Shown here piece after piece: positions 1,404-20,793 of a stretch of 64,000 nucleotides of DNA. The notes beneath the pieces were generated by a model that saw only the letters and a list, made by a program, of their open reading frames with translations, had not been told where the DNA came from and searched no databases. The translations under genes were made by a program, and so were the position numbers. This DNA comes from a virus (taxonomy: Duplodnaviria > Caudoviricetes), in IMG/VR virus record IMGVR_UViG_3300028591_000003, positions 64,001 through 128,000 of that record; one strand, written 5' to 3'. Position 1 is the first letter of the stretch. Every line of letters begins with the position of its first letter.

Positions 1404-1516
1404 AGAGATACTTTATAATAATCAATGCAGGATTTGAACCTGCTACTTCAATTTTAACAAAATTGCGCTCTATCCATATGAGCTAATCGATCAAAATCAG
1501 TGTTGTAAGTATCTCT
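1404..1516 (-). ncRNA. handle RNA enclosing a tRNA-Asn(GTT)-like body (1420-1492)
   Basis: AGAGATACTTACAACA...AGTATCTCT helix flanks a cloverleaf with CAATT-TTGTTAA-AATTG anticodon arm. Confidence 0.75.
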
Positions 1517-1813: not shown

Positions 1814-2446
1814 TTATAGATTTATTAAACCTTTTTCTAACATTGCATGATGATTAGGGCATAGCCAAACTAAATTATTTTCATTATTTATTTCTTTAAT
1901 TAAAGTGTCTTCTGAAAATTCTAAAATTCCTTTTATATGATGTACTTCAAGTATTTCATCAAATTCATGATTTTTACAATAAGCACAAACTTTTTCTTTA
2001 TCAGATTTTTCTAATATTTTTCTTGCGTTTTTCCTAATTTCTCCACATTTAGTTGTGAGATATTTTTGTCCTGAAATATAATATCCTAAAGTTTTTTCTC
2101 CTATTGTTCCCCTTTTCTTGTTATAACATTCCAAACATATTTCAGAATGTACATCTTTAGGCTTTCCACATATAGGACAAATCTTATTAGGATTTTTTTC
2201 ATGTATATCTGTTCTGCCTTTGTTAAAGGTTTCAGATTCATTAATTATTCTTCTTCGAGGTAATTCAATTCCTAATTTTCTAGCAACTTTTTTAATATTA
2301 CTTCCAGAACAACCATATCTTCTACCTATTTCTTCATAACTGACTTTTTCTATATTTATAAGTCTTTCTAATTCTTCTTTTTCAGAATCCCATTTTGACA
2401 TATTTACAAACGAAGGGTTTTTAATCTTCGTACTATAAATATACAT
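1814..2446 (-). CDS. free-standing HNH endonuclease with N-terminal HTH and zinc fingers
   Basis: SYEEIGRRYGCSGSNIKK HTH; CPICG..CLEC; CAYC...LEVHHI...NLVWLCPNHH HNH motif. Confidence 0.9.
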   Translation of the reverse strand: MYIYSTKIKNPSFVNMSKWDSEKEELERLINIEKVSYEEIGRRYGCSGSNIKKVARKLGIELPRRRIINESETFNKGRTDIHEKNPNKICPICGKPKDVHSEICLECYNKKRGTIGEKTLGYYISGQKYLTTKCGEIRKNARKILEKSDKEKVCAYCKNHEFDEILEVHHIKGILEFSEDTLIKEINNENNLVWLCPNHHAMLEKGLINL

Positions 2447-2519
2447 TTTGAGTTCGAAAAATCAAACTTAAACTTATAAATTTAAGAAATTTTAACAATT
2501 ATAAAATAATACAATTTAG

Positions 2520-3094
2520 TACACCAGGTAGGATTCGAACCTACGACCTACTGCTTCATACTACTCTATGTTGCCATAGCCAAACAATGTCCTATTCTTA
2601 GACGATTAGATTTCCATCCTGCTAGGCATTTCACCACGCATTTTGTTTGTTGTAGTCTGGAATACATTATTACCATATTGAAATCCTTGCAAGTAACTAA
2701 GTCCGTTCATTCCCTTCTCATTTCCATCATTTCTGATTTCTCGGGTGTCTTCTTAGTAATTTCAATTTAGGTATCTCCTCTATACTCTCTACACGTTTAT
2801 AAGAAATAAGTGTCCACTCCTACAACACCTTTCGCTATATAAGCTAATGCTTCCATCATACAATACAATGGTATTTCTTAATTTAGCACGGTATTATCCT
2901 TACACATTATTGATTAGTGTTGTTAATCCTGTACTGATTTAACAGCTTAATGAGCGAATTGTTAACATCATTGCTCACACTCTTAGAAAAAGGACTTCCA
3001 CCGTTTTAGGGAGATTCTACATAGGACTTTCGTGCCCATGCATCCAATTTATTTATAGAAGGCAGTTGCTCTAATCCAGCTGAGCTACTGGTGC
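2520..3094 (-). tRNA. tRNA-Arg(TCT) split by a group I intron (exons 3094-3057 and 2556-2520)
   Basis: Joined exons give GCACCAG/CTGGTGT acceptor, ACTGC-CTTCT|AA-GCAGT anticodon arm and canonical T arm. Confidence 0.9.
2557..3056 (-). mobile_element. group I intron in tRNA-Arg(TCT), inserted after the anticodon, no ORF
   Basis: Exon ends in U, intron ends in G; core blocks (AATCTCC..AAA.CGGTGGAA.TCC, ATACCG.GC.AAAT, GTGTAGAGA, GGAGATACCTAA, CCAGAC.ACAAC) shared with the intron at 4356-4850. Confidence 0.85.
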
Positions 3095-3098
3095 TTAA

Positions 3099-3163
3099 AA
3101 AGATACTTATTTTTATAACCATCCTATATTTATGTTTTATTAAAAATAGTTGTAAGTATCTTT
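3099..3163 (-). ncRNA. handle RNA with non-tRNA payload
   Basis: AAAGATACTTACAAC...AAGTATCTTT terminal helix. Confidence 0.65.
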
Positions 3164-3229
3164 ATTAACTCTGGATTATCCAAAAACTCCTCTGTTAGGG
3201 AGAGGTGAGTTAATTACTCCAGTTAATAG

Positions 3230-3665: not shown

Positions 3666-3733
3666 AAGATACTTTCAACAACTAACCTAAACAATTTACA
3701 AACTATGAAAGTAATAAAAATTGTAAGTATCTT
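3666..3733 (-). ncRNA. handle RNA with non-tRNA payload
   Basis: AAGATACTTACAAT...AAGTATCTT terminal helix. Confidence 0.65.
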
Positions 3734-4022: not shown

Positions 4023-4146
4023 AAGTTACTTAATAAATATTTGCATTAAACCACTATGCTAATCCGCAAACATGGAGCAGATAATGGATTCGAACCACTG
4101 ATACTTTTTTAAGTATAATATTTTTAACTAATATTGTAAGTAACTT
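4023..4146 (-). ncRNA. handle RNA with circularly permuted tRNA-like domain (YrlA-like topology)
   Basis: Order is handle 5', T arm (GTGG-TTCGAAT-CCAT), loop-closed acceptor (ATCTGC..GCGGAT), D arm (GCAT-AGTGGTTTA-ATGC), handle 3'. Confidence 0.75.
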
Positions 4147-4303: not shown

Positions 4304-4884
4304 TACGACAGGCGGGGATCGAACCCGCAAGATCTCTACAGACCTGAGGGATTTTCTTACCACTCTATGTTACCATAGCCAAACAAACACATTTTGTCGT
4401 TTAAAGCCGAGCAAGTTCTTAACTTCCATCTGATTTCACCCTTCAAAGAAGTTAATGCAGGCTTTTGTTTGTTGTGGTCTGGACTGTCTCTTTACCATAT
4501 TGAAATTCTTGCAAGTTCGTGACTTATCTCTATATATTGAGGGTTATCAAAAACCATTTTCTTTTGTCCTTATAAATTTCAACTTAGGTATCTCCCGTTC
4601 AGTCTCTACACGATTATAAGAAAAATATTCCTAAGAATATGGGTTGGGAATCGAACCCAACTTTACGCACCCGTAGGTGCACAGGATACCATTACCTGCC
4701 TACACTTCTTATTTTCGCTCGGTATAGTCCTACACATTATTTGTTAGTGTACAGTATTGGATTAAATTATGCACTGCTTTCACCTCAAGGATTTCCACCG
4801 AATTTAGGAGATTCTACTATGGGATTTCTCGCCATAGCACTCAATTTTCTAAGTCCCTTGTGTACACCATTCCACCACTGTCGC
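4304..4884 (-). tRNA. tRNA-Leu(TAA) split by a group I intron (exons 4884-4851 and 4355-4304)
   Basis: Joined exons give AGGGA-CTT|AAAA-TCCCT anticodon arm, long variable arm, GCGACAG/CTGTCGT acceptor. Confidence 0.9.
4356..4850 (-). mobile_element. group I intron within the UAA anticodon of tRNA-Leu, no homing ORF
   Basis: Exon ACTT pairs with intron GAGT (P1 with U:G at the splice site); terminal G; core homologous to intron 2557-3056. Confidence 0.85.
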
Positions 4885-4886
4885 AT

Positions 4887-4968
4887 TTGAGATACTTAAA
4901 TTTATCTTTTACCAACACGTTGTTCCTATATTTATGTTTAATTAAATAAATATTTATAAGTATCTCAA
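4887..4968 (-). ncRNA. handle RNA with non-tRNA payload
   Basis: TTGAGATACTTATAA...AAGTATCTCAA helix; payload shares a 15-mer with 3099-3163. Confidence 0.65.
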
Positions 4969-5022
4969 GATGAACGTAAATAAATTTATTACTTAATTTT
5001 TAAAATCTATAGTTAAAAGATG

Positions 5023-5247
5023 TTAAATCAGTTTAGATAGATTCTGTTTTATGCTAGCGATTTCAGTCTTTAATCGTTCACATTCTTCATTATAACTACG
5101 TCCTTTATGATAGATAGTTCTACCATTTCGTGTTGAAGTCCAAGGTTTCTTGTCTTCACCAGCAGCTTTAAATTTTTCGTAAACTACTTCCAACCTTTGT
5201 AGTGCCATTCTTCTACGGACTACAATATTTCCTTTTCCTTTTGACAT
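5023..5247 (-). CDS. hypothetical basic protein
   Basis: 74-aa ORF in tandem run. Confidence 0.7.
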   Translation of the reverse strand: MSKGKGNIVVRRRMALQRLEVVYEKFKAAGEDKKPWTSTRNGRTIYHKGRSYNEECERLKTEIASIKQNLSKLI

Positions 5248-6688: not shown

Positions 6689-6806
6689 CGGGGAGTACAA
6701 GAGTCGAACTTGCACTTCTGGAAAATCCCAGAAATTATGAAAGATGTTTTTGTAAGTAATAATTTACTACTCAACATAATCGGGCTTAACCATGCCCAAA
6801 CTCCCC
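6689..6806 (-). ncRNA. tRNA-like RNA with handle replacing the anticodon loop; long variable arm
   Basis: GGGGAGT/ACTCCCC acceptor, GGGC/GCCC D stem, ATTATG/CATAAT stem enclosing AGTAGT..ATTACTTACAAA, TTCTGG/CCAGAA variable arm, T arm. Confidence 0.7.
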
Positions 6807-6810
6807 TAAT

Positions 6811-6916
6811 TAAGATACTAGAAAATACATCTTGGAATCGAACCAAGTACACTCGGCGTTACGGCTGATGCTCTAACCAAATGAGCTAATGTGGTTATAT
6901 TATTGTAAGTATCTTA
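6811..6916 (-). ncRNA. handle RNA enclosing a degenerate tRNA body
   Basis: TAAGATACTTACAAT...AGTATCTTA around GCTC/GAGC D arm and CTTGG-TTCGATT-CCAAG T arm. Confidence 0.7.
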
Positions 6917-6974: not shown

Positions 6975-7367
6975 TCATTTTATACTATCATTTTTATTAA
7001 TAGACCAACTATCTACCCATTTGTCTAAAGCTTTTATACATTTATCTGGAAGTTGTTTTGCAGTTGGATTTGATTTAACATAATCAATAGTTCCACCAAC
7101 TCCATAAATAAGAAGTGCTTGATTTGTTGTAGGAATAAATATTTCTCCTAGACAGCAAACAAAGAAAATAGGTATTGTAAACCTAAGAATTTTAATTGAC
7201 AATTTTTGATACATTTTGTATTCAGTACGTTGGTCCTCAACTTCATTGCAATAGTTTACTAAATATACTATAAAAAATGCTATAGAAAGAATAATACTAG
7301 TAACAAGGAATATTGTTAAAACAGTACTGATTGAATCAAATCTTGTAATCCAATAAATTTCATTCAT
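6975..7367 (-). CDS. membrane protein, hypothetical
   Basis: 130 aa with two hydrophobic helices. Confidence 0.8.
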   Translation of the reverse strand: MNEIYWITRFDSISTVLTIFLVTSIILSIAFFIVYLVNYCNEVEDQRTEYKMYQKLSIKILRFTIPIFFVCCLGEIFIPTTNQALLIYGVGGTIDYVKSNPTAKQLPDKCIKALDKWVDSWSINKNDSIK

Positions 7368-7386: not shown

Positions 7387-7452
7387 AGGATACTAAAAAT
7401 GTCCCAATTAAAAGTTAGGTGCTTACTAGCAATTTAGTATTATAAGTATCCT
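7387..7452 (-). ncRNA. handle RNA with short non-tRNA payload
   Basis: AGGATACTTATAATA...AGTATCCT helix. Confidence 0.6.
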
Positions 7453-7483
7453 ATTTATTATGAAAGTAATTATTATAAAGTAA

Positions 7484-7604
7484 AAGTTACTTAGTAAAAA
7501 ACGTTGCTCTAAACCAAGCTGAGCTATCCCGAAACCCTCAGGAGTTGGATTTGAACCAACGACACACGGCTTACAAAGCTGATTCTTGATATTGTAAGTA
7601 ACTT
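7484..7604 (-). ncRNA. handle RNA with circularly permuted tRNA-Thr(TGT)-like domain
   Basis: Order is handle 5', anticodon-like arm (TTTGTAA), T arm, loop-closed acceptor (TCCTGA..TCGGGA), D arm (GCTC/GAGC), handle 3'. Confidence 0.75.
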
Positions 7605-7661
7605 AATTAGAAACTAGAGGAGGAATCGAACCTCCTCTAGTCGTGATGCTTATTAAAAAAA

Positions 7662-9521
7662 TCAAAGGGTATTTGCTCTCACGAGTTCATACCTATTGCT
7701 TCTATAGAGACTCAACAGTGGAGTATAGACATCAAAGACATCCATATCCTTGAAGTTAGTCAGGAATTGCTCAATCATTGCTGGATTCGAAGGTATGTAC
7801 ATCATGTTGTCAATTCCACTAAATCGGTCTGCTCCAGCACTAGCACGAGAGCCAACAGCACCAGTAACATCCATAAGGATTACGTAAGGACGGAATCCAA
7901 AGAACCCCTCACACTGACGGAAGAAATCGTTCATACTCGCCTCTGGTGAATACATATTATTGAACATACCATCAGACATGATTGTCCATACAGGATAGTT
8001 ACGAAGAGCATCCTTAATCTCAGGATTTGCCTGACAAGCCTGGTTCAATCCCTTAGGAATACATGAAATATCAGTATTCCATCCCTGGAACTTACTTTGA
8101 AGGAAAGCAGAAATCCTCTTGTAATTATCCAGGAAACTAAGTTTAGGATCAACGAATGGTTGTGCCTTAGTCTTAGCTACCTTACTTCTTAAGATTGAGT
8201 TCTGAGATGTAGCCTGAGAATCAATGTAAGAATAGAAACGAGATGTTCCATCAAACATACCAACGAGATTACGAGCATCATCATCGGGATTCTTAACCAT
8301 ACATACTGCAGTAATAAAGGCAGCAAATCTGAATGGTGTACCACTCATAGAACCAGAACTGTCAATAATGGTCAGTGAATTATAAGGAAGATTAACCTTA
8401 TTCATAAAGGACTCAATCTTCAACTTATCAATTGTGCCACTAAGAATCTGGTTGTAGAGTTCAGTAAAGTTAGTAGCACCAATTGTTACCTTGGCCTCTT
8501 TCTTCACTTTCTCCAATTTAACCTTATCCTCCTCACTAGCCTGACCTTGACGAACCTTCTCTTCCAGAATACGTTGTTCTTGTTGCTTCTGCTCCTTATA
8601 AGTTTCCCATTCCTTGATCCAAGGCTGGAACTTAGCCCACTTAGATACTTCTGCAATAGCTACATTAGACTTTCCATCCAATCCAGCTGTCTCACAGTCT
8701 GCACCTACTACCTTGGAATAGAGGATTCTGTTCTTAACCCTGAACCTAGCCTGAGATGGGAGCTTGTCAAACCAGTCGATGAATTGCTGCTTGTCAAACT
8801 CATTTATCTTGCCAGTAGAGAAAAGTACAGATTCAAGAGAGCCATTGTACTGCTTTCGCCACTCACGATAACCCTTAAAATATTCCAGTTCCCATCCCAT
8901 CATCTTAGAGAGTTCAGTTAAGAAGTTCTTTTTCTCATTCATTACCTGAATAGTCTCAGGAAGAACTCTCTTATGACCTTGACGCTTACTGGTTCTTGGG
9001 ATAGTCAAGAACTTGGCAATCAATGTCTTATTGAACGGATTAGAACCGTTAATCACAGCATATGTATAGTCAAGAAGAGCCTTCACATACTCTTTATCTT
9101 GAAATGCATGATATATTTTCAGTACCTTCGAACCCTTAGTTTGAACTCGATTACGGAACAAAACATCAAAGCATGTATACTCATTAAAGAGTTGTGCATT
9201 TAAAAACTTGATGAATTGTTTCTTATCTTTTTTCCAAAGCCAGGTTGTGATAGTATAGAAAGCCTCACGATTGGCATTACCACCACTGTCAACCTTCTTC
9301 TTTTTAAAGATGTTGTGCTGACGATTAGTAATGTCTCCAATAGAGAACAGGATTGAGAAGAAAAGTTCTCTCTTTTCTTTAGAGTTCTTTACTTCAAGCC
9401 ATGCATCATTCAGAAGAACCTCTGAAATAACTGCATCAGTTGATGCCTGCTGAAGTTGCAGACATCTGCGAAGTCCGTAAAACGGATTGTTACTTTTTTT
9501 ATTAAGTTCTACTTGTACCAT
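7662..9521 (-). CDS. TROVE/Ro60-like (DUF2828-type) helical protein with C-terminal VWA domain
   Basis: MIDAS DSSGSMSG, NTD and IMSDGMFN motifs; N-terminal blocks (GDI..GG..NREAF, IAKFL, YREWRK, DKLPSQA) recall DUF2828/TROVE; family call from memory. Confidence 0.7.
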   Translation of the reverse strand: MVQVELNKKSNNPFYGLRRCLQLQQASTDAVISEVLLNDAWLEVKNSKEKRELFFSILFSIGDITNRQHNIFKKKKVDSGGNANREAFYTITTWLWKKDKKQFIKFLNAQLFNEYTCFDVLFRNRVQTKGSKVLKIYHAFQDKEYVKALLDYTYAVINGSNPFNKTLIAKFLTIPRTSKRQGHKRVLPETIQVMNEKKNFLTELSKMMGWELEYFKGYREWRKQYNGSLESVLFSTGKINEFDKQQFIDWFDKLPSQARFRVKNRILYSKVVGADCETAGLDGKSNVAIAEVSKWAKFQPWIKEWETYKEQKQQEQRILEEKVRQGQASEEDKVKLEKVKKEAKVTIGATNFTELYNQILSGTIDKLKIESFMNKVNLPYNSLTIIDSSGSMSGTPFRFAAFITAVCMVKNPDDDARNLVGMFDGTSRFYSYIDSQATSQNSILRSKVAKTKAQPFVDPKLSFLDNYKRISAFLQSKFQGWNTDISCIPKGLNQACQANPEIKDALRNYPVWTIMSDGMFNNMYSPEASMNDFFRQCEGFFGFRPYVILMDVTGAVGSRASAGADRFSGIDNMMYIPSNPAMIEQFLTNFKDMDVFDVYTPLLSLYRSNRYELVRANTL

Positions 9522-9992
9522 TGTTTTAAATTTATTATTTGTAAGTAACTAATTAAATAAATTTCCTACATCTGTTTTATAGCAATTAACTCGTTCAATC
9601 TACTAAAGAGATTCTACTAAAGTGCAGATTCTCACTGCTTTTCTATTTTACAGTCTCCATCACGTTGCTTTACGTATCACAATGACCTCAATCACATGTT
9701 TGCCACTACAAGGTCTTTCAACTGTCAATTCAGTATGCCCATTGAAGGTTCAATATTGGAATTCCCTTCAGCCCTCGGAAATTTATTATAAATTAAAATA
9801 CTATCTAACGCTATAAACGCAGGAGTTGGCAACACCCTTTTCTCCCTAGCATAAGTTAATATGCCTCCAATTCGACCAATAGATAGTATTTTATCTGAAA
9901 AAGAGTGGCTTCGAGCGGTTTTATCTCTACTTCACCCGCGCTATAGTTTCCGCACACGTGGTTCCGGTATCAAGCTTCACTCTTATTCTTGT

Positions 9993-10430
9993 TTAGTTGA
10001 ACTCTTCCGTAGAATCCATAGCAGCAAGCTCTGCCTCCATCTCCTTAATACGATCCTCAGGAGTTTTGGTGGACTCTTTAAGTTCAGCGAGCTTCTCAGT
10101 AAGCTCTGCCTTCTTACGGCGACTCTCTGCGAGTTCAAGATGGTAGCGCTTGAAACCTACAATGAGATTTACAAGTTCCTTCATCTCCTTGAGAGAATCG
10201 AGTTCAGTAGTGTTAACTTCTACCCATTCATCCTTGTTCTCAAGATTCTGAATCTTAGTTGAAAGACCAGCCTTGATATTGTTCAGGGTGTTAATACTTG
10301 TTGTGTGAATCAACTCTACAATGTTAAGTGGAGCACCCATTTTAGTAGAGATTGTACTGTTTGTCATGAGCATCTTAAGAGCAAGCTCACACATCTTGCT
10401 GTAATGCTCTTTTGTGAAATTTATTTTCAT
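9993..10430 (-). CDS. coiled-coil hypothetical protein
   Basis: 145-aa ORF with heptad-rich C-terminus. Confidence 0.8.
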   Translation of the reverse strand: MKINFTKEHYSKMCELALKMLMTNSTISTKMGAPLNIVELIHTTSINTLNNIKAGLSTKIQNLENKDEWVEVNTTELDSLKEMKELVNLIVGFKRYHLELAESRRKKAELTEKLAELKESTKTPEDRIKEMEAELAAMDSTEEFN

Positions 10431-10523
10431 ATTGTTAAAACTTTTTTAATTATTTTAATTATAGTTAGATTATCTGTATTACATTTACGAGCAATATCTG
10501 TAATTGCTCGTAAAATATAACCT

Positions 10524-10883
10524 TCAATTTCCTCCTCCATAGCTTCCAATTTTTTGATAAATCGTACCACCATTCTCCTTTTTAAAAGAGAATGCCTCAT
10601 ACAATCTCTCAAAAGGAATTACTTTATAATTTGATGTTATTACTCTATACATTTCTTCAGATTCTTTAATCAATTCCTCTAGCTCTGGTATGATGCAAAA
10701 TTCGACAATTACATCTAATTCTGCTACTAATGAATCATCATCATCTTCAATATATCCTTTGAATAGACGATTTTGAGCATAAGCAATAACCTCTTTTCCT
10801 GTTGGAAAAAGAGATTTCTCAGATAAAATCACACAAGACAATTCCAAATCATTGTGTGTCAAGAGAGTTGAAATTCTTTTCAT
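10524..10883 (-). CDS. hypothetical protein
   Basis: 119-aa ORF coupled to upstream ORF. Confidence 0.7.
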   Translation of the reverse strand: MKRISTLLTHNDLELSCVILSEKSLFPTGKEVIAYAQNRLFKGYIEDDDDSLVAELDVIVEFCIIPELEELIKESEEMYRVITSNYKVIPFERLYEAFSFKKENGGTIYQKIGSYGGGN

Positions 10884-11065
10884 ATTGTTTGTTGTTTATT
10901 ATAGATTTGTGACATTACATTCAAAGAATGCTCTATCAATTCGTTGTCAATACCTTGGTAATGTTCTACAAGGTAGTCTTCTGCTTCTGGAATTGTTCCA
11001 GTAAAAACAGCATTTGCAACAAGTGAGATTAACTCACAAGCGAATTTTCTTTCTGTTGGTTTCAT
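10880..11065 (-). CDS. hypothetical protein
   Basis: 61-aa ORF with ATGA overlap. Confidence 0.6.
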   Translation of the reverse strand: MKPTERKFACELISLVANAVFTGTIPEAEDYLVEHYQGIDNELIEHSLNVMSQIYNKQQTI

Positions 11066-11100
11066 TCGTTTACAATAATTAAGTTCTACTTTTGATTTTA

Positions 11101-11502
11101 TTAAAATAATTTTGCTTTGTCTAATTCCTTTAAGACAAGGTGATTACAACTACCAATTTTCTTCCATTGCCAATCAAAATCAGCATTATTGGGAAACAAA
11201 GATTTCCAATATTCAGGGATGTGACCACCACACCATAAATTAGTAGTAGTAACTTTTCTACCATCCTTAAAACGGATTTCAAACTTATCACCGCCAAATC
11301 CTCTAAAAGGATCTTTAGAGTCTTCGTCATCAATGGTATAAAATATACCATCAATGATAGCTACATCAGGTCTTCCTACTAAAGAAAGACGCTCACGCCA
11401 GAAAGAACATTCAAAACATTCTCCACGCTCTTTTATAGAGCGTCCATCAGAACCAATGAAACTATCAGTTCCTAGTTCTTTACCGCAAGTTGGACATTTC
11501 AT
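11101..11502 (-). CDS. zinc-finger-containing hypothetical phage protein
   Basis: CPTCG...CFECSFW; GFGG..F.I.F.DG....TTNLW pattern. Confidence 0.8.
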   Translation of the reverse strand: MKCPTCGKELGTDSFIGSDGRSIKERGECFECSFWRERLSLVGRPDVAIIDGIFYTIDDEDSKDPFRGFGGDKFEIRFKDGRKVTTTNLWCGGHIPEYWKSLFPNNADFDWQWKKIGSCNHLVLKELDKAKLF

Positions 11503-11686
11503 ATTGCTGTTTGTTTTAAGTTATTAAAAATAAATATAGGAGTTTCTCAGTGAAGAGGTCTTCTCATTACTCTATTGTGAATTCATTATTCGAGAATTCG
11601 GTATAAAGGCGAGTAACATCTACAAAGCTACCAAACATGCTATCCGGACATACCGGTCCTATATTATAGAGTGTAGATTCTCTTAG

Positions 11687-11761
11687 TAGCCAGAGTTGGA
11701 TTTACACCAACGACCTTTCACCCTCCCGGGAACGCTCTTATATTATCTGAGCTATCTGGCT
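11687..11761 (-). ncRNA. isolated tRNA-like element with no readable anticodon
   Basis: AGCCAGA/TCTGGCT acceptor, GCTC/GAGC D stem, GTTGG/CCAAC T stem; aberrant loops. Confidence 0.6.
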
Positions 11762-12110
11762 AAATTGTACGGCCTTACCATACTTTATCCGTACTTTTAT
11801 TTAATTTTCGGAGTCTCCTTCATGTATGGCTTCCAGTGCATGTCCTATCTGATTAGGTTTGAATTATGTAAATATAATTTTTACTCAAATACCTGCAGAG
11901 TCAAAAGTCTGATACACATTTCGTGGTCACCTAAGCTCAAGCTTCGCATTTTTTATCTTCTTATTATGATTCCGTATCAGTTGAATCACATACTGAGGAG
12001 TTTGTAACTTAATTTAACAACATCTGAATTACCAAACTTTTCCGAAAATAATCAGATGGGGCCCAAATTTCTTCTTAAATGAAGTCCAAAAGAAATTATT
12101 GAAACAGACT

Positions 12111-12566
12111 TCAAGACTTTAGAGTATCTGCAATCGCATTTATATTTGATCTTAAATGTTGCCTATACTGCTGCATAATAAGATCATAGACTTTTTTATT
12201 GGGATCAATTCCGAAACCATTTCCAGCCATAGTTTCATCCTTGTGTTCCTCCCAGAACTTACCAGTATTAGTCCATAAACCCCAAATATCTCCAAGATAG
12301 AGATTATCTAGAGTTAATGCTGAAATACTGTCACAACGAAACATTCCCCAAGAACATGGTGAAAGATTTGAATTTCTATATCCAATATCCCAAGCATGTT
12401 TATGGACATTAATAAGATCTTGAAGAGTTTTAGCTCTCCTAAGATCTTCATTTAACTGCTTATTCCATCCTATAATAGAATCCGCAGTTTCTTTCCACTC
12501 TTGATATTCTTTAAGAGCTTTTGAATGGAATAATCTATTCCATAAAGTATCTTTAATCTTTTTCAT
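12111..12566 (-). CDS. hypothetical protein
   Basis: 151-aa ORF with AAACAAAACAACAAT leader. Confidence 0.8.
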   Translation of the reverse strand: MKKIKDTLWNRLFHSKALKEYQEWKETADSIIGWNKQLNEDLRRAKTLQDLINVHKHAWDIGYRNSNLSPCSWGMFRCDSISALTLDNLYLGDIWGLWTNTGKFWEEHKDETMAGNGFGIDPNKKVYDLIMQQYRQHLRSNINAIADTLKS

Positions 12567-13419
12567 ATTGTTGTTTTGTTTATTTAGCTATTTTTGTTAT
12601 CTTTCTTCAAATGTTTTTATTTCTTTTGATGAAACATGAAATTCCATATCATATAATGTTTCACTTATGTTTTCCTTTAACTTATCCATTTCTTGATATG
12701 TTAAAGGTGTATCTACCTCAAATTGTAATATTATTGTTCTTTTCATATTATTTTATTTGTTTATTTAGCTATTAATAAAATCTCAAATCCTTTCGGATTA
12801 TAAGATGTCCAGTAAAAGCAGCACGCCGAAAACCTGGACTCTCTATTGACTAGAGTAGCTAATTCTAGTTAGAGATTTTTAAACCCTTGCATTTTTTAGT
12901 TCCTGCAATGATTTAATAGGAACACTCTAGAGCTCGGATTGGTTACCGAAAACTAGATACTTTGGACAAGCAGTCTAATATCAATTTAGGTTTTACTTTC
13001 AGGTTTACATCAGATTAATTATCCAAATGTCTATCTGCCTAAAATCTAATATTGAGCCTCTTATGTCTGCTGTAATATATTGTACCAGCAAGTTAAAGAT
13101 ATTTTTCTTTGGCAATCTAGTTTATATCCTATTCTTGAACAGATTGATTACCGAAAATCATTTACTGAACATTCATCAATATTCATCATCCATGCGTCTG
13201 GTGAATTTAGGGTAGGAACACTTTTAAAAGGTATTCTTTGATGAATTCTCTTCTTGAGTTCTTCTGTAATTTCTTCTTTTTTCATAATGTATCCTTGATT
13301 ATCGGTTTTTATAATATCAATACATACTATAAATATATCCCATTCCTCTAATGTTTACTCGGAAGATAATCTTGAGTTGAGTTCCTAACGGATCTCATAC
13401 TCAAGATTATACTTCTTTG

Positions 13420-13905
13420 CTATACTTCTTCGTAAATTAAATATTTACTCCAAAGCTGAGGATAATCCTTTTTAAAGGATTCCTCATCAAAACCTACACA
13501 TTTTTTGAGCTGGTATCCTTGCTGCTTTAAGTAAGTAGCACACTCAGACTCGAAGTCTGCGTCTTTTTCTGAAACTTTGGACTTCTCTGAATGTGGAGGA
13601 TAAATCCAATTCTCAAACCAAGTTTTATGGATTGGATTATATGGAAACATATATCCAATATGATTTCCTCTACCCATTCCCTCTCTTTTAAATTTTTGAA
13701 GAAGAGTAGGATTAGCAACAATTTTTGATGCCATAACTCCACTTAATCCAGCTTCTTTTAAAAGCTTAATTACCTGTTCATTTGAGAATTTTTTCCCTTT
13801 GTTCTTATCTCGAACTAAGTTATACCTCGCTGAGACTTCTTCTGTGTTAATTTTATTTTTCATATTGTTTGTTGTTTGTTTATTTGGATACCACATGGTA
13901 TCCAA
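13420..13905 (-). CDS. hypothetical protein (probable start 13863), ends at TAG
   Basis: A/C-rich leader precedes MKNKIN; TAG followed by a hairpin. Confidence 0.75.
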   Translation of the reverse strand: MDTMWYPNKQTTNNMKNKINTEEVSARYNLVRDKNKGKKFSNEQVIKLLKEAGLSGVMASKIVANPTLLQKFKREGMGRGNHIGYMFPYNPIHKTWFENWIYPPHSEKSKVSEKDADFESECATYLKQQGYQLKKCVGFDEESFKKDYPQLWSKYLIYEEV

Positions 13906-14196
13906 GATTAGATACTATTCCGTTATTTGTTTTTCTTGTGACCCTAATTAACGGACCCTCAGGATCAATTCCAATTAAATCTTCTTCTGAAAATTCAACC
14001 GGAACATCATTGAATCTTAATAATTTCATTGCGTTATATAGACAATTACTGTTGACAATGCTAATATTACAAGTACATAAATCGTACTTAAAACTAATTC
14101 TAATTCTTTTTTCATAATTGTTTGTTTTTAAAGTTTCATATTATTAATTTGTTAAAAATGTCTCCATACCCGTATTGATATGGAGACCAAACAAAC

Positions 14197-14325
14197 TTAA
14201 CAATTTCGGCCGATTATTTATACTCGGGAGACGGCCTACCTACATGTTATCCTGAACATCGTGGCAAATCTGCCCATTAATTGGCAGTAATCATCAGTGA
14301 AATTCCGAGTTTTTCAAATTGTTAA
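14197..14325 (-). ncRNA. hammerhead-like element (type III) with inserted hairpins
   Basis: Stem III TTAACAAT/ATTGTTAA, stem I TGAAA/TTTCA, CTGATGA and GAAA core, GGCCG/CGGCC stem, loop-loop ACTCGG/CCGAGT. Confidence 0.5.
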
Positions 14326-14824
14326 TTTCTCAGATTGTTAATTTTTAAAAATGAAAGTCTAGGCTATCAACTTTCTGGAGGACTACGAAACCCATGATCT
14401 CCTCTTTGACATAACTAGGTATGCATGTTTACCCTTGTGTTTACCTTCCCACAACTGGTGTATCCATTTTCAAGATACTGGTTCGAACTAAAATTTTGCC
14501 GTCTATTCCGAGCTGCCAACTTATTACTAAGTATAATAACGCAAGGGAAATCAACACTTACTATCCTTCTTGCTACTTTTCGTATAAGCCATGTGTGCAA
14601 CTTCCAACTGCCTCCTCCTCAGCCATATGAACTCCACCATTCAGTTGGTAACAAATGAAGTTCGGCTACACCTTTTAAATTTAAAACTAAAAATCCATAT
14701 TATTAAAAATTAATCCTCTCACGTACATTTGAGGGTTAATGCCTAATATTACGACAGAGCCTATAATTTCAAGGATGTAAATAGGTCATTAAATATTATC
14801 TCCTCACTTCCTTGGAGATCGAGC

Positions 14825-15034
14825 TTAACATTCAGAGACTCTTATTGAGTAGTTAAGTCTACTTACGTCAATTCCATGTGCCAGCATGGACAGATACGGA
14901 ACACAATATACTGGCATATATTGTGAACATTCGCTAAGTATTTTCATGTGCATTTTATCACATGCTGCTCTGTCCGCCCTTAGCTTCTGAGGCCATTTTA
15001 CACATTTATAGTACGCAGTCCTATAATGCGCCAA
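14825..15034 (-). CDS. hypothetical protein
   Basis: 69-aa ORF, weak TTG start. Confidence 0.35.
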   Translation of the reverse strand: MAHYRTAYYKCVKWPQKLRADRAACDKMHMKILSECSQYMPVYCVPYLSMLAHGIDVSRLNYSIRVSEC

Positions 15035-15073
15035 GCTTTTTATTTTACTTCCCTTCTTGGTTATAGGAAGTTT

Positions 15074-15301
15074 TTATTTTAATAACCTTAACAACTCTTT
15101 ATCATCAGGTTCTGTTGCACCTGCTTCTATAAGACCTTCATATGTTCTTAAATCCTTAGATAAATCTATTGCTCTCCATCTTGAAAGAGAAATGTAAAGA
15201 TTCTCTGGAATAGGTCCACCTACTGGTCTAGTTTCAAATTCATCTTTTTTAAGATGCTGAAAGAGCCAGTTACCAATACTTAAATAATCAGGATATTTCA
15301 T
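15074..15301 (-). CDS. hypothetical protein
   Basis: 75-aa ORF with TTAACAAT leader. Confidence 0.7.
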   Translation of the reverse strand: MKYPDYLSIGNWLFQHLKKDEFETRPVGGPIPENLYISLSRWRAIDLSKDLRTYEGLIEAGATEPDDKELLRLLK

Positions 15302-15385
15302 ATTGTTAATTATTTGTTTTGAAAAATTATTTGAGAGTAACTATCTTCACAGACTGTTACTCTCTAAACTATGAAAAACACACTC

Positions 15386-15898
15386 TTATTTTATACATTC
15401 TGGAGGAAAAGCTTGAAGTTCACAAAGAACACTTACAAGCTGTGAATAACGAAATCCACCCATATCAGAATGATCCTGTTCTGTATCATTGAGAAGAGCT
15501 TTAAGAGTTTGATCAATCCAAGATCTTCTAGTACAGAATATCTTAAAATCAGAATTCTCTAAAGCTTTTATACATTTCTGCATGGCCTCAAATGATGGAA
15601 TATTGAAATCACCGCCAGTTCCATCCTTACGACGCCAACAAATATGTTTTCCATCATTATACTCAATGTCATTGATATGAGCAATGAGTAATGACTGACA
15701 TGCTTGCATGCGTCTCTCTAATGAAGCAATGATACGTGGTGAAAATGCTCCTATGATATCTATCATAAGATTAATACCCCTCTGCTGTGCTTTATCCAAA
15801 TCAAAGTCAGAACCAGCAGGTTTACACTTTTTCGGAATAAGCAGATCAAAAGACATCAACACACCTTTTTCAGTCTCTGAAAATGTTGTATTCTTCAT
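15386..15898 (-). CDS. hypothetical protein
   Basis: 170-aa ORF with TTAACAAT leader. Confidence 0.8.
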   Translation of the reverse strand: MKNTTFSETEKGVLMSFDLLIPKKCKPAGSDFDLDKAQQRGINLMIDIIGAFSPRIIASLERRMQACQSLLIAHINDIEYNDGKHICWRRKDGTGGDFNIPSFEAMQKCIKALENSDFKIFCTRRSWIDQTLKALLNDTEQDHSDMGGFRYSQLVSVLCELQAFPPECIK

Positions 15899-16411
15899 AT
15901 TGTTAAGTTACTACAGAATAGAGCTGTAGGACCTCAGATGGCTAATTATACCGCTAACCTAACGTACCCTCATATTGATGGCGAGTCACAACCCCTCCGA
16001 CTGTGGACTAGGGAAACCTTACTATACTTCTGGTTTTACGAATTGTGTTTTACACCTAAAACTTGTTCAATATCCACGGTAGAATATTATTCTCCTTATT
16101 GTCTTGATGGAGCTGAAAGAACAAGAAACTGGCGTCCTCAACATCTTGGAAATCCTAACTGTTTTACGCCACATGACCATATAGTATCTATATGTTAAGC
16201 CAGGACAACTCCACGTTAGAATATTTTATATTGAGTTTTTTACAGGCTTAACGTACCTGTTATGCTCATTACGGAAGGTTCTATGTTGTACTGAAACCTA
16301 CAAGCCTACATCGTAACTTTTACCACGCTCTACGATGTTCGCGTGAAACCTAGGGACGATAGGAAATACTGCCCTTATATGGTTAGCATGCCCTCATGGC
16401 ACAAGTCATAA

Positions 16412-20700: not shown

Positions 20701-20776
20701 TGGGGCGTAGTCGAGCGGCTTCAGACTGGAGACTCTAAATCTCTGCATTACGCGGGTTCGAATCCTGCCACCCCAA
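20701..20776 (+). tRNA. amber suppressor tRNA (CUA anticodon), Gln-type acceptor
   Basis: GGAGA-CTCTAAA-TCTCT anticodon arm; U1-A72, G2-C71, G3-C70; GCGGG-TTCGAAT-CCTGC T arm. Confidence 0.93.
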
Positions 20777-20793
20777 CTAGACGTAAATGAATT

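What the first reader, a model, noticed from the sequence alone, without database searches (positions are those of the whole stretch)
9505..9550. Handle motif in the VWA gene's own leader suggests translational autoregulation
AGUUACUUACAAA lies about 17-29 nt upstream of the ATG and can pair with AAGUA(G)AACU in codons 3-6, enclosing the start codon. This links the motif to this particular gene and suggests free protein represses its own translation when RNA partners are saturated.
Basis: partly seen in the sequence, partly recalled or inferred. Interest (0 to 1): 0.75.

Follow-up and report, generated by a model that had tools for sequence, protein, structure and literature searches.

The report
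Start-codon hairpin in phage Ro60-like gene
The short RNA tag that marks a set of tRNA-like RNAs in this large rumen phage also sits in front of the neighbouring Ro60-like protein gene, where it forms a conserved hairpin around the start codon; this probably lets the protein limit its own synthesis, though no binding or repression has been tested.

Summary
The proposed pairing with codons 3-6 is weak here (+0.7 kcal/mol, probability about 0.02). The conserved partner is AAGUAAC at 9495-9489 (K9-S10-N11). It gives a 7-bp helix with the whole initiation region in its loop (-3.4 kcal/mol, the MFE, but no better than shuffles).

The motif is not a promoter. It is the 5' strand of an RNA helix followed by unpaired ACAA. 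The same module closes two YrlA-like RNAs, tRNA-like RNAs and small hairpins just downstream, with extensive covariation.

The protein folds like Ro60 (TROVE plus VWA). Among 117 related loci, almost all leaders carry the motif. Ser and Asn codons at the partner site are invariably AGT and AAC. The helix encloses the AUG for this gene (58 of 62) but not for other ORFs beside handles (2 of 44).

Autoregulation by the Ro60-like protein is therefore plausible, but binding and repression are untested. Other notes of this scan had already flagged the handle system, once on another genome.

The parts
7662..9521 (-). Gene for the 619-aa Ro60-like protein (helical TROVE-like N-terminal part plus C-terminal VWA domain with a DxSGSM MIDAS motif)
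   Evidence: ORF. No Pfam hit at E<=0.1. AlphaFold2 model with pLDDT 72.8. The top 12 Foldseek hits are all Ro60/TROVE, E 3e-5 to 8e-4. VIA-align gives Z 10.5-11.5 over residues 15-613. There are 1262 homologues in metagenomes.
9538..9550 (-). Handle motif AGUUACUUACAAA in the leader: helix 5' strand GUUACUU (9549-9543) followed by unpaired ACAAA (9542-9538)
   Evidence: Exact match. Conserved upstream of orthologues. Covered by metatranscriptome contigs.
9519..9521 (-). Start codon, inside the 47-nt loop (9542-9496) of the handle hairpin
   Evidence: An in-frame TAG lies at 9551-9549, and the N-terminus is conserved in orthologues.
9489..9495 (-). Helix 3' strand AAGUAAC (nt +27..+33; last base of K9, then S10 AGT and N11 AAC)
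   Evidence: MFE partner. The same partner is found in 26 of 37 loci, always with AGT and AAC, against gene-wide use of 29% and 32%.
9505..9514 (-).
   Evidence: Energy +0.7 / -0.1 kcal/mol, P about 0.02. Class ii partners occur in L005, L051, L039, and with G.U in L002, L007, L044-L049 and L109.
7484..7604 (-). YrlA-like RNA closed by the handle helix AAGUUACUU/AAGUAACUU and then ACAAU. It holds a T arm, an acceptor-like hairpin and a D arm.
   Evidence: Rfam RF02553 full-length match at 7472-7590: 39 bits (gathering score 69), E 2e-7. The MFE structure has a 10-bp closing helix.
4023..4146 (-). Second YrlA-like (tRNA-like, permuted) RNA, closed by the same helix AAGUUACUU/AAGUAACUU
7387..7452 (-). 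Handle hairpin AGGAUACU/AGUAUCCU. It ends 20 nt before the ATG of ORF 7367..6975, so it does not enclose that start codon.
6811..6916 (-). Handle helix UAAGAUACU/AGUAUCUUA bracketing a tRNA (Rfam 6823-6895)
6747..6772 (-). Handle in inside-out form (short capped helix, then UUACUUAC-AAAAA), inserted inside a tRNA-like cloverleaf (6806-6690)
   Evidence: MFE fold at -41.6 kcal/mol. This shows that the motif lies within an RNA body.
4887..4968 (-). Handle hairpin UUGAGAUACUU/AAGUAUCUCAA (11 bp)
3666..3733 (-). Handle hairpin AAGAUACUU/AAGUAUCUU, directly before tRNA-Glu
3099..3163 (-). Handle hairpin AAAGAUACUU/AAGUAUCUUU
1404..1516 (-). Handle helix AGAGAUACUU/AAGUAUCUCU bracketing tRNA-Asn
9555..9990 (-). 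Conserved, structured, highly expressed non-coding stretch directly upstream of the handle. Its strand is inferred, not shown.
   Evidence: RNA depth about 2110 against 20-50 for the gene. It is conserved next to the motif in L036, L018, L007, L006, L031 and L004. No Rfam family matches.

Best explanation
The leader of the Ro60-like gene carries one copy of the phage's RNA 'handle'. The handle is a helix whose 5' strand ends in ...G-N-Y-ACUU, followed by unpaired ACAA(U/A).

In this genome the helix is GUUACUU (9549-9543) paired with AAGUAAC (9495-9489). Its 47-nt A/U-rich loop holds the whole ribosome landing site and the AUG. The helix is marginal on its own, so ribosomes can normally open it.

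The same module closes the YrlA-like and tRNA-like RNAs encoded just downstream, which are the presumed partners of the protein. I infer three steps:
1. The Ro60-like protein recognises this module.
2. When protein exceeds the handle-bearing RNAs, it binds the copy in its own mRNA, clamps the helix and blocks initiation.
3. The small RNAs compete with the mRNA for the protein and so relieve the repression.

This would be autogenous translational repression by target mimicry.

Shown here: the motif, its transcription, the conserved hairpin that is repeatedly re-created, its specificity to this gene, and the Ro60-like fold. Inferred: that the protein is the ligand, and that binding represses.
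For: 1. The handle is an RNA helix, not a DNA signal.
- Eight of 12 copies in the window have a perfect 8-11-nt complement 51-112 nt downstream, with flanks that covary.
- In 37 loci there are 279 exact copies on the gene strand and 21 on the other strand. Of the 279, 177 have a perfect partner of 7 nt or more, against 7 of 279 in a reversed-sequence control.
- There are 100 distinct modules with 8 bp or more, using 17 different helix 4-mers.
- One copy lies inside a tRNA-like cloverleaf.

2. The leader is transcribed. RNA-library contigs at the gene's own depth run across the ATG and the motif to 9636 and 9641. RNA depth across the window ranges from 0.5 to 16,000, so DNA carry-over is small.

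3. The leader hairpin is conserved.
- Twenty-seven of 31 distinct leaders have a perfect partner of 7 nt or more, against 2.2% of control windows taken from the same genes.
- At the partner site Ser is AGT and Asn is AAC in 26 of 26 loci, against 29% and 32% gene-wide.
- The outer pair occurs as C-G, U-A and U.G, and L106 extends the helix to 9 bp.

4. The partner has been re-created at several positions: codons 8-11, codons 3-5, codons 17-19, or just upstream of the AUG. This needs at least 12 changes on the protein tree.

5. Enclosure of the AUG is specific to this gene: 58 of 62 distinct leaders, against 2 of 44 other ORFs next to handles.

6. The handle is not a general tRNA signal. The 15-tRNA array at genome positions 43-48 kb has none.

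7. The protein has a Ro60-like fold, and YrlA-like RNAs with the handle lie downstream.
Against: - No binding or repression data exist. The link between the protein and the handle rests on gene neighbourhood and on the fold alone.
- The helix is thermodynamically unremarkable (z = +0.53), and its probability falls to 0.27-0.63 in longer contexts.
- Within the main class the 7 core pairs never vary, so classical covariation is limited to the outer pair.
- L029 has no leader motif. In seven distinct leaders (eight loci: L027, L028 and L033, L042, L052, L058, L108, L114) the helix closes 6-22 nt upstream of the AUG instead of enclosing it.
- The handle differs from the canonical Ro-binding helix of known Y RNAs.
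- The protein matches no Pfam TROVE model.
- The RNA evidence comes from unstranded assembled contigs of one sample, and the 5' end of the mRNA is not mapped.
- The counts are not corrected for relatedness among the loci.
Confidence: 0.42

Rival explanations
1. The hairpin is real, but it is a generic tag rather than a feedback operator. It would mark the mRNA as part of the same early, multi-gene transcript as the small RNAs. It could act as a site for endonucleolytic processing (for example separating the abundant upstream RNA from the mRNA), as a stability element, or as a site for loading into the particle. It would have no dose-dependent control of translation by the protein.
For: The same module brackets tRNAs, tRNA-like RNAs and short hairpins and also precedes other ORFs. 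A very abundant conserved RNA ends roughly 50-90 nt upstream of the handle: depth 2110 against about 40. In a few lineages the leader hairpin does not enclose the AUG.
Against: A generic 5' tag would not need its 3' strand inside the coding region. For other ORFs the helix closes upstream in 42 of 44 cases, while for this gene it encloses the AUG in 58 of 62. When the partner is lost it is re-created again close to the AUG.
Confidence: 0.27
2. The hairpin controls translation, but the ligand is another factor: a different phage early protein, a host protein, or one of the YrlA-like RNAs acting in trans. The 3' strand of those RNAs (AAGUAACU) is an 8-nt perfect complement of the leader's AGUUACUU.
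For: The complementarity can be read directly from the sequence. Several small early ORFs of unknown function lie nearby and have no Pfam family.
Against: The 3' strands of the small RNAs are already paired within their own closing helices. The only gene that always travels with the handle array in the loci examined is the Ro60-like gene, but those loci were selected for that gene, so this point is weak.
Confidence: 0.15
3. The motif is a phage promoter with a -10-like TACAAT, repeated in front of each early gene. In that case the RNA does not contain it, and the complementarity is irrelevant.
For: This was my first reading. The motif is intergenic, oriented with the genes, and lies 6-9 nt before two tRNAs. 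TACAAT and TATAAT resemble a -10 hexamer.
Against: - Perfect 3' partners that covary lie 30-110 nt downstream.
- One copy sits inside a tRNA-like body.
- RNA contigs run across several copies.
- There is no -35 element, and the consensus scan calls no promoter at this site.
- The 15 tRNAs elsewhere in the genome lack the motif.
Confidence: 0.05
4. The complementarity is chance in an A/T-rich leader and a Lys/Asn-rich N-terminus, and has no function.
For: The genome is 29-31% G+C. The energy is no better than shuffles. An energy-only duplex score separates cognate from control windows only moderately: 41% against 8.5% at -8 kcal/mol or lower.
Against: Synonymous sites are invariant. Perfect partners occur in 87% of leaders against 2.2% of controls. 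The partner has relocated repeatedly. Enclosure of the AUG is specific to this gene.
Confidence: 0.04

Closest known systems
Ro60 (Rsr) with YrlA-type Y RNAs of bacteria and phages (Chen et al. 2014, PMC4201824; Rfam RF02553; Thermus phage phiLo Ro60, PMC12135203, PDB 9l5y)
   Same: The protein has a ring-plus-VWA fold like Ro60. Its gene lies next to small RNAs with a tRNA-like T arm, acceptor-like hairpin and D arm, closed by a 5'/3' helix. Phage examples of such systems are already known.
   Different: There is no sequence-level TROVE match. The YrlA match falls below Rfam's gathering score. The conserved helix (ACUU/AAGU plus ACAA) is not the canonical Ro-binding helix. The same module also marks about a dozen other RNAs and the gene's own leader. 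The papers I searched and read describe no feedback of a Ro60 protein on its own mRNA.
Autogenous translational repression by target mimicry. Examples: the MS2/R17 coat protein on the replicase operator hairpin that contains the AUG; ribosomal proteins L1, S8 and L20 on their own mRNAs; T4 RegA and gp32. These examples come from my own knowledge, not from a tool result.
   Same: A copy of the protein's presumed RNA target sits at the initiation region of its own mRNA. The hairpin is weak alone and holds the AUG. It is conserved and specific to this gene.
   Different: Neither binding nor repression has been shown. The loop is long (47 nt) rather than compact. The protein family has no precedent for this kind of control.
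Early-gene TROVE protein Gp96 of Bacteroides phage crAss001 (MH675552; PMC8375218)
   Same: It is an early-expressed TROVE gene at a genome end, according to the paper. It is followed by about 900 nt without a CDS. That stretch holds four copies of a related tag, TTACTTCAA, on the gene strand, inside tRNA-like sequence.
   Different: Only the VWA MIDAS stretch aligns with this protein. The tag differs (ACUUCAA, not ACUUACAA). The Gp96 leader has no upstream tag, only a small hairpin containing ACUUCAA at codons 10-15, which may be chance.

Membership tests
Ro60/TROVE - Y RNA ribonucleoprotein | Protein with a TROVE helical-repeat ring followed by a VWA domain | tested here: met
   The top 12 Foldseek hits are all Ro60/TROVE chains aligned over the full length, E 3e-5 to 8e-4. 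VIA-align gives Z 10.5-11.5 with 320-342 residues aligned over 15-613. Hits to VWA alone reach Z 9-10, so the margin for the N-terminal part is modest. The model has pLDDT 72.8.
Ro60/TROVE - Y RNA ribonucleoprotein | Sequence match to the TROVE family profile | tested here: not met
   No Pfam family at E<=0.1. A profile search against PDB sequences finds only weak VWA matches. hhalign against crAss001 Gp96 aligns 35 columns of the MIDAS region only.
Ro60/TROVE - Y RNA ribonucleoprotein | Adjacent Y RNA with a tRNA-like domain closed by a 5'/3' stem (YrlA type) | tested here: inconclusive
   RF02553 gives a full-length match at 7472-7590: 39 bits against a gathering score of 69, E 2e-7. A second, similar RNA lies at 4023-4146. 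L029 has a match of 35.5 bits. All are below the curated threshold.
Ro60/TROVE - Y RNA ribonucleoprotein | Canonical conserved Ro-binding helix in the Y RNA stem | tested here: not met
   The conserved element here is N-G-N-Y-ACUU paired with AAGU..., plus unpaired ACAA. The phiLo paper describes a stem flanking a bulge with a CGAA motif. That motif is not part of the handle consensus.
Ro60/TROVE - Y RNA ribonucleoprotein | Physical binding of the protein to the RNAs | not testable with these tools
   This needs a pull-down, gel shift or CLIP experiment.
Autogenous translational operator (target mimicry) | Structured element overlapping the initiation region of the regulator's own mRNA | tested here: met
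   The helix 9549-9543/9495-9489 encloses nt -21..+26, counted from the A of the ATG. It encloses the AUG in 58 of 62 distinct orthologous leaders.
Autogenous translational operator (target mimicry) | The element resembles the protein's primary RNA target | tested here: inconclusive
   The leader has the same helix-plus-ACAA module as the two YrlA-like RNAs and the other handle RNAs. That these RNAs are the protein's targets is inferred only.
Autogenous translational operator (target mimicry) | Protein binds the element and lowers translation | not testable with these tools
Bacterial or phage promoter | A DNA signal upstream of the transcript start, not constrained as RNA | tested here: not met
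   The 3' partners covary. One copy lies inside an RNA body. RNA contigs span the copies. The promoter scan reports no site at 9538-9550.

The most novel reading that the evidence does not exclude
A divergent Ro60-like protein of large rumen and gut phages recognises a short helix-plus-ACAA handle. It uses a copy of that handle around its own start codon to set its level against a pool of about a dozen handle-tagged tRNA mimics. This would be the first autoregulatory circuit described for the Ro60 family. It would also define the family's RNA recognition element in these phages.
Probability: 0.35. Interest if true: 0.72.

Novelty: new variant of a known kind. Interest (0 to 1): 0.58.

Why it matters
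Ro60 proteins and their Y RNAs are found from bacteria to humans, yet how their levels are balanced is poorly understood. In the papers I searched, no Ro60 is described as controlling its own synthesis.

This leader gives a concrete, small and testable RNA element: 73 nt with a 7-bp helix. It would do two things at once. It would test whether this phage protein recognises the handle, and it would show whether a feedback loop couples the protein's level to the pool of tRNA-like RNAs.

The comparative signal also serves as indirect evidence that the protein and the handle belong together. The partner has been re-created repeatedly, the synonymous codons are frozen, and enclosure of the AUG is specific to this gene. 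This helps to interpret the whole array of tagged tRNA mimics in these abundant gut phages.

Tried and rejected
- Promoter reading. I held it at first because TACAAT looks like a -10 hexamer and the motif lies 6-9 nt before two tRNAs. I dropped it after finding the covarying partners, the copy inside a tRNA-like body and the RNA contigs.
- Published crAss-like promoter motifs. The phi14:2 paper reports no common motif for early transcripts and sigma-70-like middle promoters, so nothing matches this motif. A full-text search for the motif letters gave only unrelated papers.
- Phage collection searches. tblastn with the protein and megablast with 16 kb against the phage collection gave no match.
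- Rfam on the upstream 480 nt found no family.
- Thermodynamic test of the leader: not different from shuffles. An energy-only duplex comparison separated cognate from control windows only moderately.
- Classical covariation inside the main partner class is not informative, because the seven core pairs never vary. I therefore did not run a formal pair count on an alignment.
- RNA runs are stored as assembled contigs only, so transcript ends and strand could not be read. No table of starts or ends was produced.
- Reverse co-occurrence, that is handle arrays in phages that lack the gene, was not tested. A pattern scan would have been too noisy.
- Membership of the phage in Crassvirales was not tested here. 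It rests on an earlier scan note and on the size and origin of the related contigs.
Full report
**What is at the coordinates**

The finding lies on the minus strand. ORF 7662..9521 (-) encodes 619 aa, with its ATG at 9521-9519. AGTTACTTACAAA is at 9550-9538, 17-29 nt before the ATG. AAGTAGAACT is at 9514-9505, in codons 3-6.

The window is positions 64001-128000 of a complete 176,443-bp virus record with terminal repeats and 29% G+C. Near-identical sequence occurs in sheep, goat and cattle gut samples.

**What the motif is**

My first reading was a promoter. The motif recurs about a dozen times on the minus strand between 1500 and 9550, in front of tRNAs and ORFs, and it contains TACAAT. That reading failed.
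- Eight of the 12 copies have a perfect 8-11-nt complement of the motif's 5' half 51-112 nt downstream. The flanks change in step: AAGTTACTT/AAGTAACTT, AGGATACT/AGTATCCT, TTGAGATACTT/AAGTATCTCAA, AGAGATACTT/AAGTATCTCT. These helices close the minimum-energy folds of the modules.
- In 37 related loci, exact ACTTAYAA occurs 279 times on the gene strand and 21 times on the other strand. Of the 279, 177 have a perfect partner of 7 nt or more, 25-135 nt downstream. A reversed, non-complemented control gives 7 of 279.
- One hundred distinct modules have helices of 8 bp or more, with 17 different 4-mers before ACUU. The invariant part is G at -3, Y at -1, then ACUU ACAA.
- One copy lies inside a tRNA-like cloverleaf, as a short capped helix.
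- Contigs from an RNA library run across several copies.

It is also not a general tRNA signal. Only two tRNAs carry it, and the 15-tRNA array at genome positions 43-48 kb has none.

**What surrounds it**

Directly after the gene's stop codon lies an RNA that matches Rfam YrlA (Y RNA-like) over its full length. The match is at 7472-7590 with 39 bits (gathering score 69) and E 2e-7. It has a T arm, an acceptor-like hairpin and a D arm. This RNA and a second one at 4023-4146 are closed by the handle helix.

The protein has no Pfam match. Its AlphaFold2 model (pLDDT 72.8) finds only Ro60/TROVE structures as its top 12 Foldseek hits, including the Ro60 of Thermus phage phiLo. VIA-align gives Z 10.5-11.5 over residues 15-613, slightly above the VWA-only matches.

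Ro60 genes next to YrlA RNAs are known in bacteria and phages (PMC4201824; PMC12135203). A TROVE protein is an early gene of phage crAss001 (PMC8375218). Other notes of this scan had reached the same reading of the system, once on another genome.

**The leader hairpin in this genome**

The minimum-energy structure instead pairs GUUACUU (9549-9543) with AAGUAAC (9495-9489). The latter is the last base of K9 plus S10 and N11. This helix scores -3.42 kcal/mol and has the AUG and the A/U-rich landing region in a 47-nt loop. It persists with probability 0.27-0.63 in longer contexts.

The energy is ordinary for this composition (z = +0.53). Thermodynamics alone therefore proves nothing.

**Comparative evidence**

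The results are as follows.
- Of 36 IMG/VR loci, 34 have an exact ACTTAYAA within 160 nt of the start codon.
- With 80 metagenome loci added, 72 distinct motif-bearing leaders were found, and only L029 and L032 lack the exact motif.
- Twenty-seven of 31 distinct leaders have a perfect partner of 7 nt or more in the 115 nt after the motif. Only 2.2% of control windows from the same genes do.
- In 26 loci the partner is AAGUAAC in an x-Ser-Asn tripeptide at codons 8-11. Ser is AGT and Asn is AAC in all 26, while the gene as a whole uses these codons 29% and 32% of the time.
- The pair outside the core is C-G, U-A or U.G in most loci, and L106 extends the helix to 9 bp.
- Where Ser-Asn is absent, another partner appears. 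It can be AAGUAAAA or AAGUAG at codons 3-5, opposite a UUUUACUU motif. It can be AGUAACU in a Cys-Ser-Asn-Cys stretch at codons 17-19. Or it can be a partner ending 6-22 nt before the AUG.
- On a protein tree built without the N-terminal columns, these classes need at least 12 changes.
- The helix encloses the start codon in 58 of 62 distinct leaders of this gene. It does so for only 2 of 44 other ORFs that follow a handle; there it closes a median of 38 nt upstream.

These counts are not corrected for relatedness. However, the repeated relocation and the frozen synonymous sites are hard to explain without selection for pairing near this AUG.

**Is the motif in the mRNA?**

In a sheep-gut metatranscriptome, contigs with no mismatch cover 9256-9636 and 9255-9641, at the same depth as the gene body (39 and 11). 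Depth along the window ranges from 0.5 to 16,000, unlike the flat DNA run. The transcript therefore appears to start upstream of the handle.

There are caveats. Both runs come from one sample, the data are assembled contigs, the libraries are unstranded, and no ends are mapped.

**Mechanism**

The best-supported reading is an operator-like copy of the handle around the start codon. It is weak alone and would block initiation when clamped by a ligand.

The Ro60-like protein is the most likely ligand. It is the only RNA-binding-type protein that travels with the handle array, and its presumed RNA partners carry the same module. This step, and repression itself, are inferred.

From general knowledge rather than from a test here, mRNAs of Bacteroidota mostly lack Shine-Dalgarno sites and rely on unstructured A-rich leaders. 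That would make such a clamp effective.

The rivals are:
- a generic tag for processing or stability;
- another ligand, or pairing in trans with the YrlA-like RNAs;
- a promoter, which is nearly excluded;
- chance, which is unlikely.

**Comparison and novelty**

The system resembles Ro60/YrlA particles but fails two membership features: there is no TROVE sequence match, and the binding helix is different. The proposed control works like the MS2 coat-protein operator or ribosomal-protein feedback. No paper that I searched describes a Ro60 protein acting on its own mRNA. I class the finding as a new variant of a known kind, of moderate to good interest, and directly testable.

Noticed in passing
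window 2400-3200 and 4400-5200: Two related stretches have very high depth in RNA libraries (8,000-16,000, against 10-50 nearby), and contigs join one to the other (2921->4787). An earlier scan note reads 4633-4710 as part of a group I intron in a tRNA-Leu gene. ORF 1814-2446 (-) has an HNH endonuclease domain, which fits a homing endonuclease.
   Followed up: partly
window 9555-9990 (-): A structured, ORF-free stretch lies directly upstream of the handle. Its RNA depth is about 2110, against about 40 for the gene. It is conserved next to the motif in six related loci and matches no Rfam family. The block GAAGUAGAGAUAAAACCGCUCGAAGCCACUC abuts the motif directly in L007 and L018.
   Followed up: partly
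window 7614-7640 (-): Just after the gene's stop codon there is a 10-bp hairpin with a T-loop sequence (CUAGAGGAGG-UUCGAUU-CCUCCUCUAG). It looks like a tRNA acceptor/T-arm minihelix and also like a terminator.
   Followed up: no
window 20701-20777 (+): A tRNA with anticodon CUA (an amber suppressor) is present. ORFs on the plus strand from about 19 kb onward are short under the standard code, which suggests that TAG is read as a residue in late genes.
   Followed up: no
L016:1292-1681, L028:1689-2201: Related phages carry a tmRNA gene (73 and 51 bits, above the gathering score of 47) about 1-1.7 kb upstream of the Ro60-like gene. None is detected at the same place in this window.
   Followed up: no
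L038 (crAss001 MH675552) 7966-8870 and 10247-10262: About 900 nt without a CDS lie downstream of the TROVE gene Gp96. They hold four copies of TTACTTCAA on the gene strand, within tRNA-like sequence, which is a variant of the handle. Codons 10-15 of Gp96 form CCAACU-UCAA-AGUUGG, which contains ACUUCAA.
   Followed up: partly
L024:2919-3100: In this relative the Ro60-like reading frame stops after 21 codons and the similarity resumes at residue 18. This is a frameshift, a sequencing error or a decaying gene. The leader hairpin is intact.
   Followed up: no
L064 leader: One relative has both partner sites: Lys-Ser-Asn at codons 8-10 and Cys-Ser-Asn-Cys at codons 17-20. It may be an intermediate in the relocation of the helix's 3' strand.
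   Followed up: no
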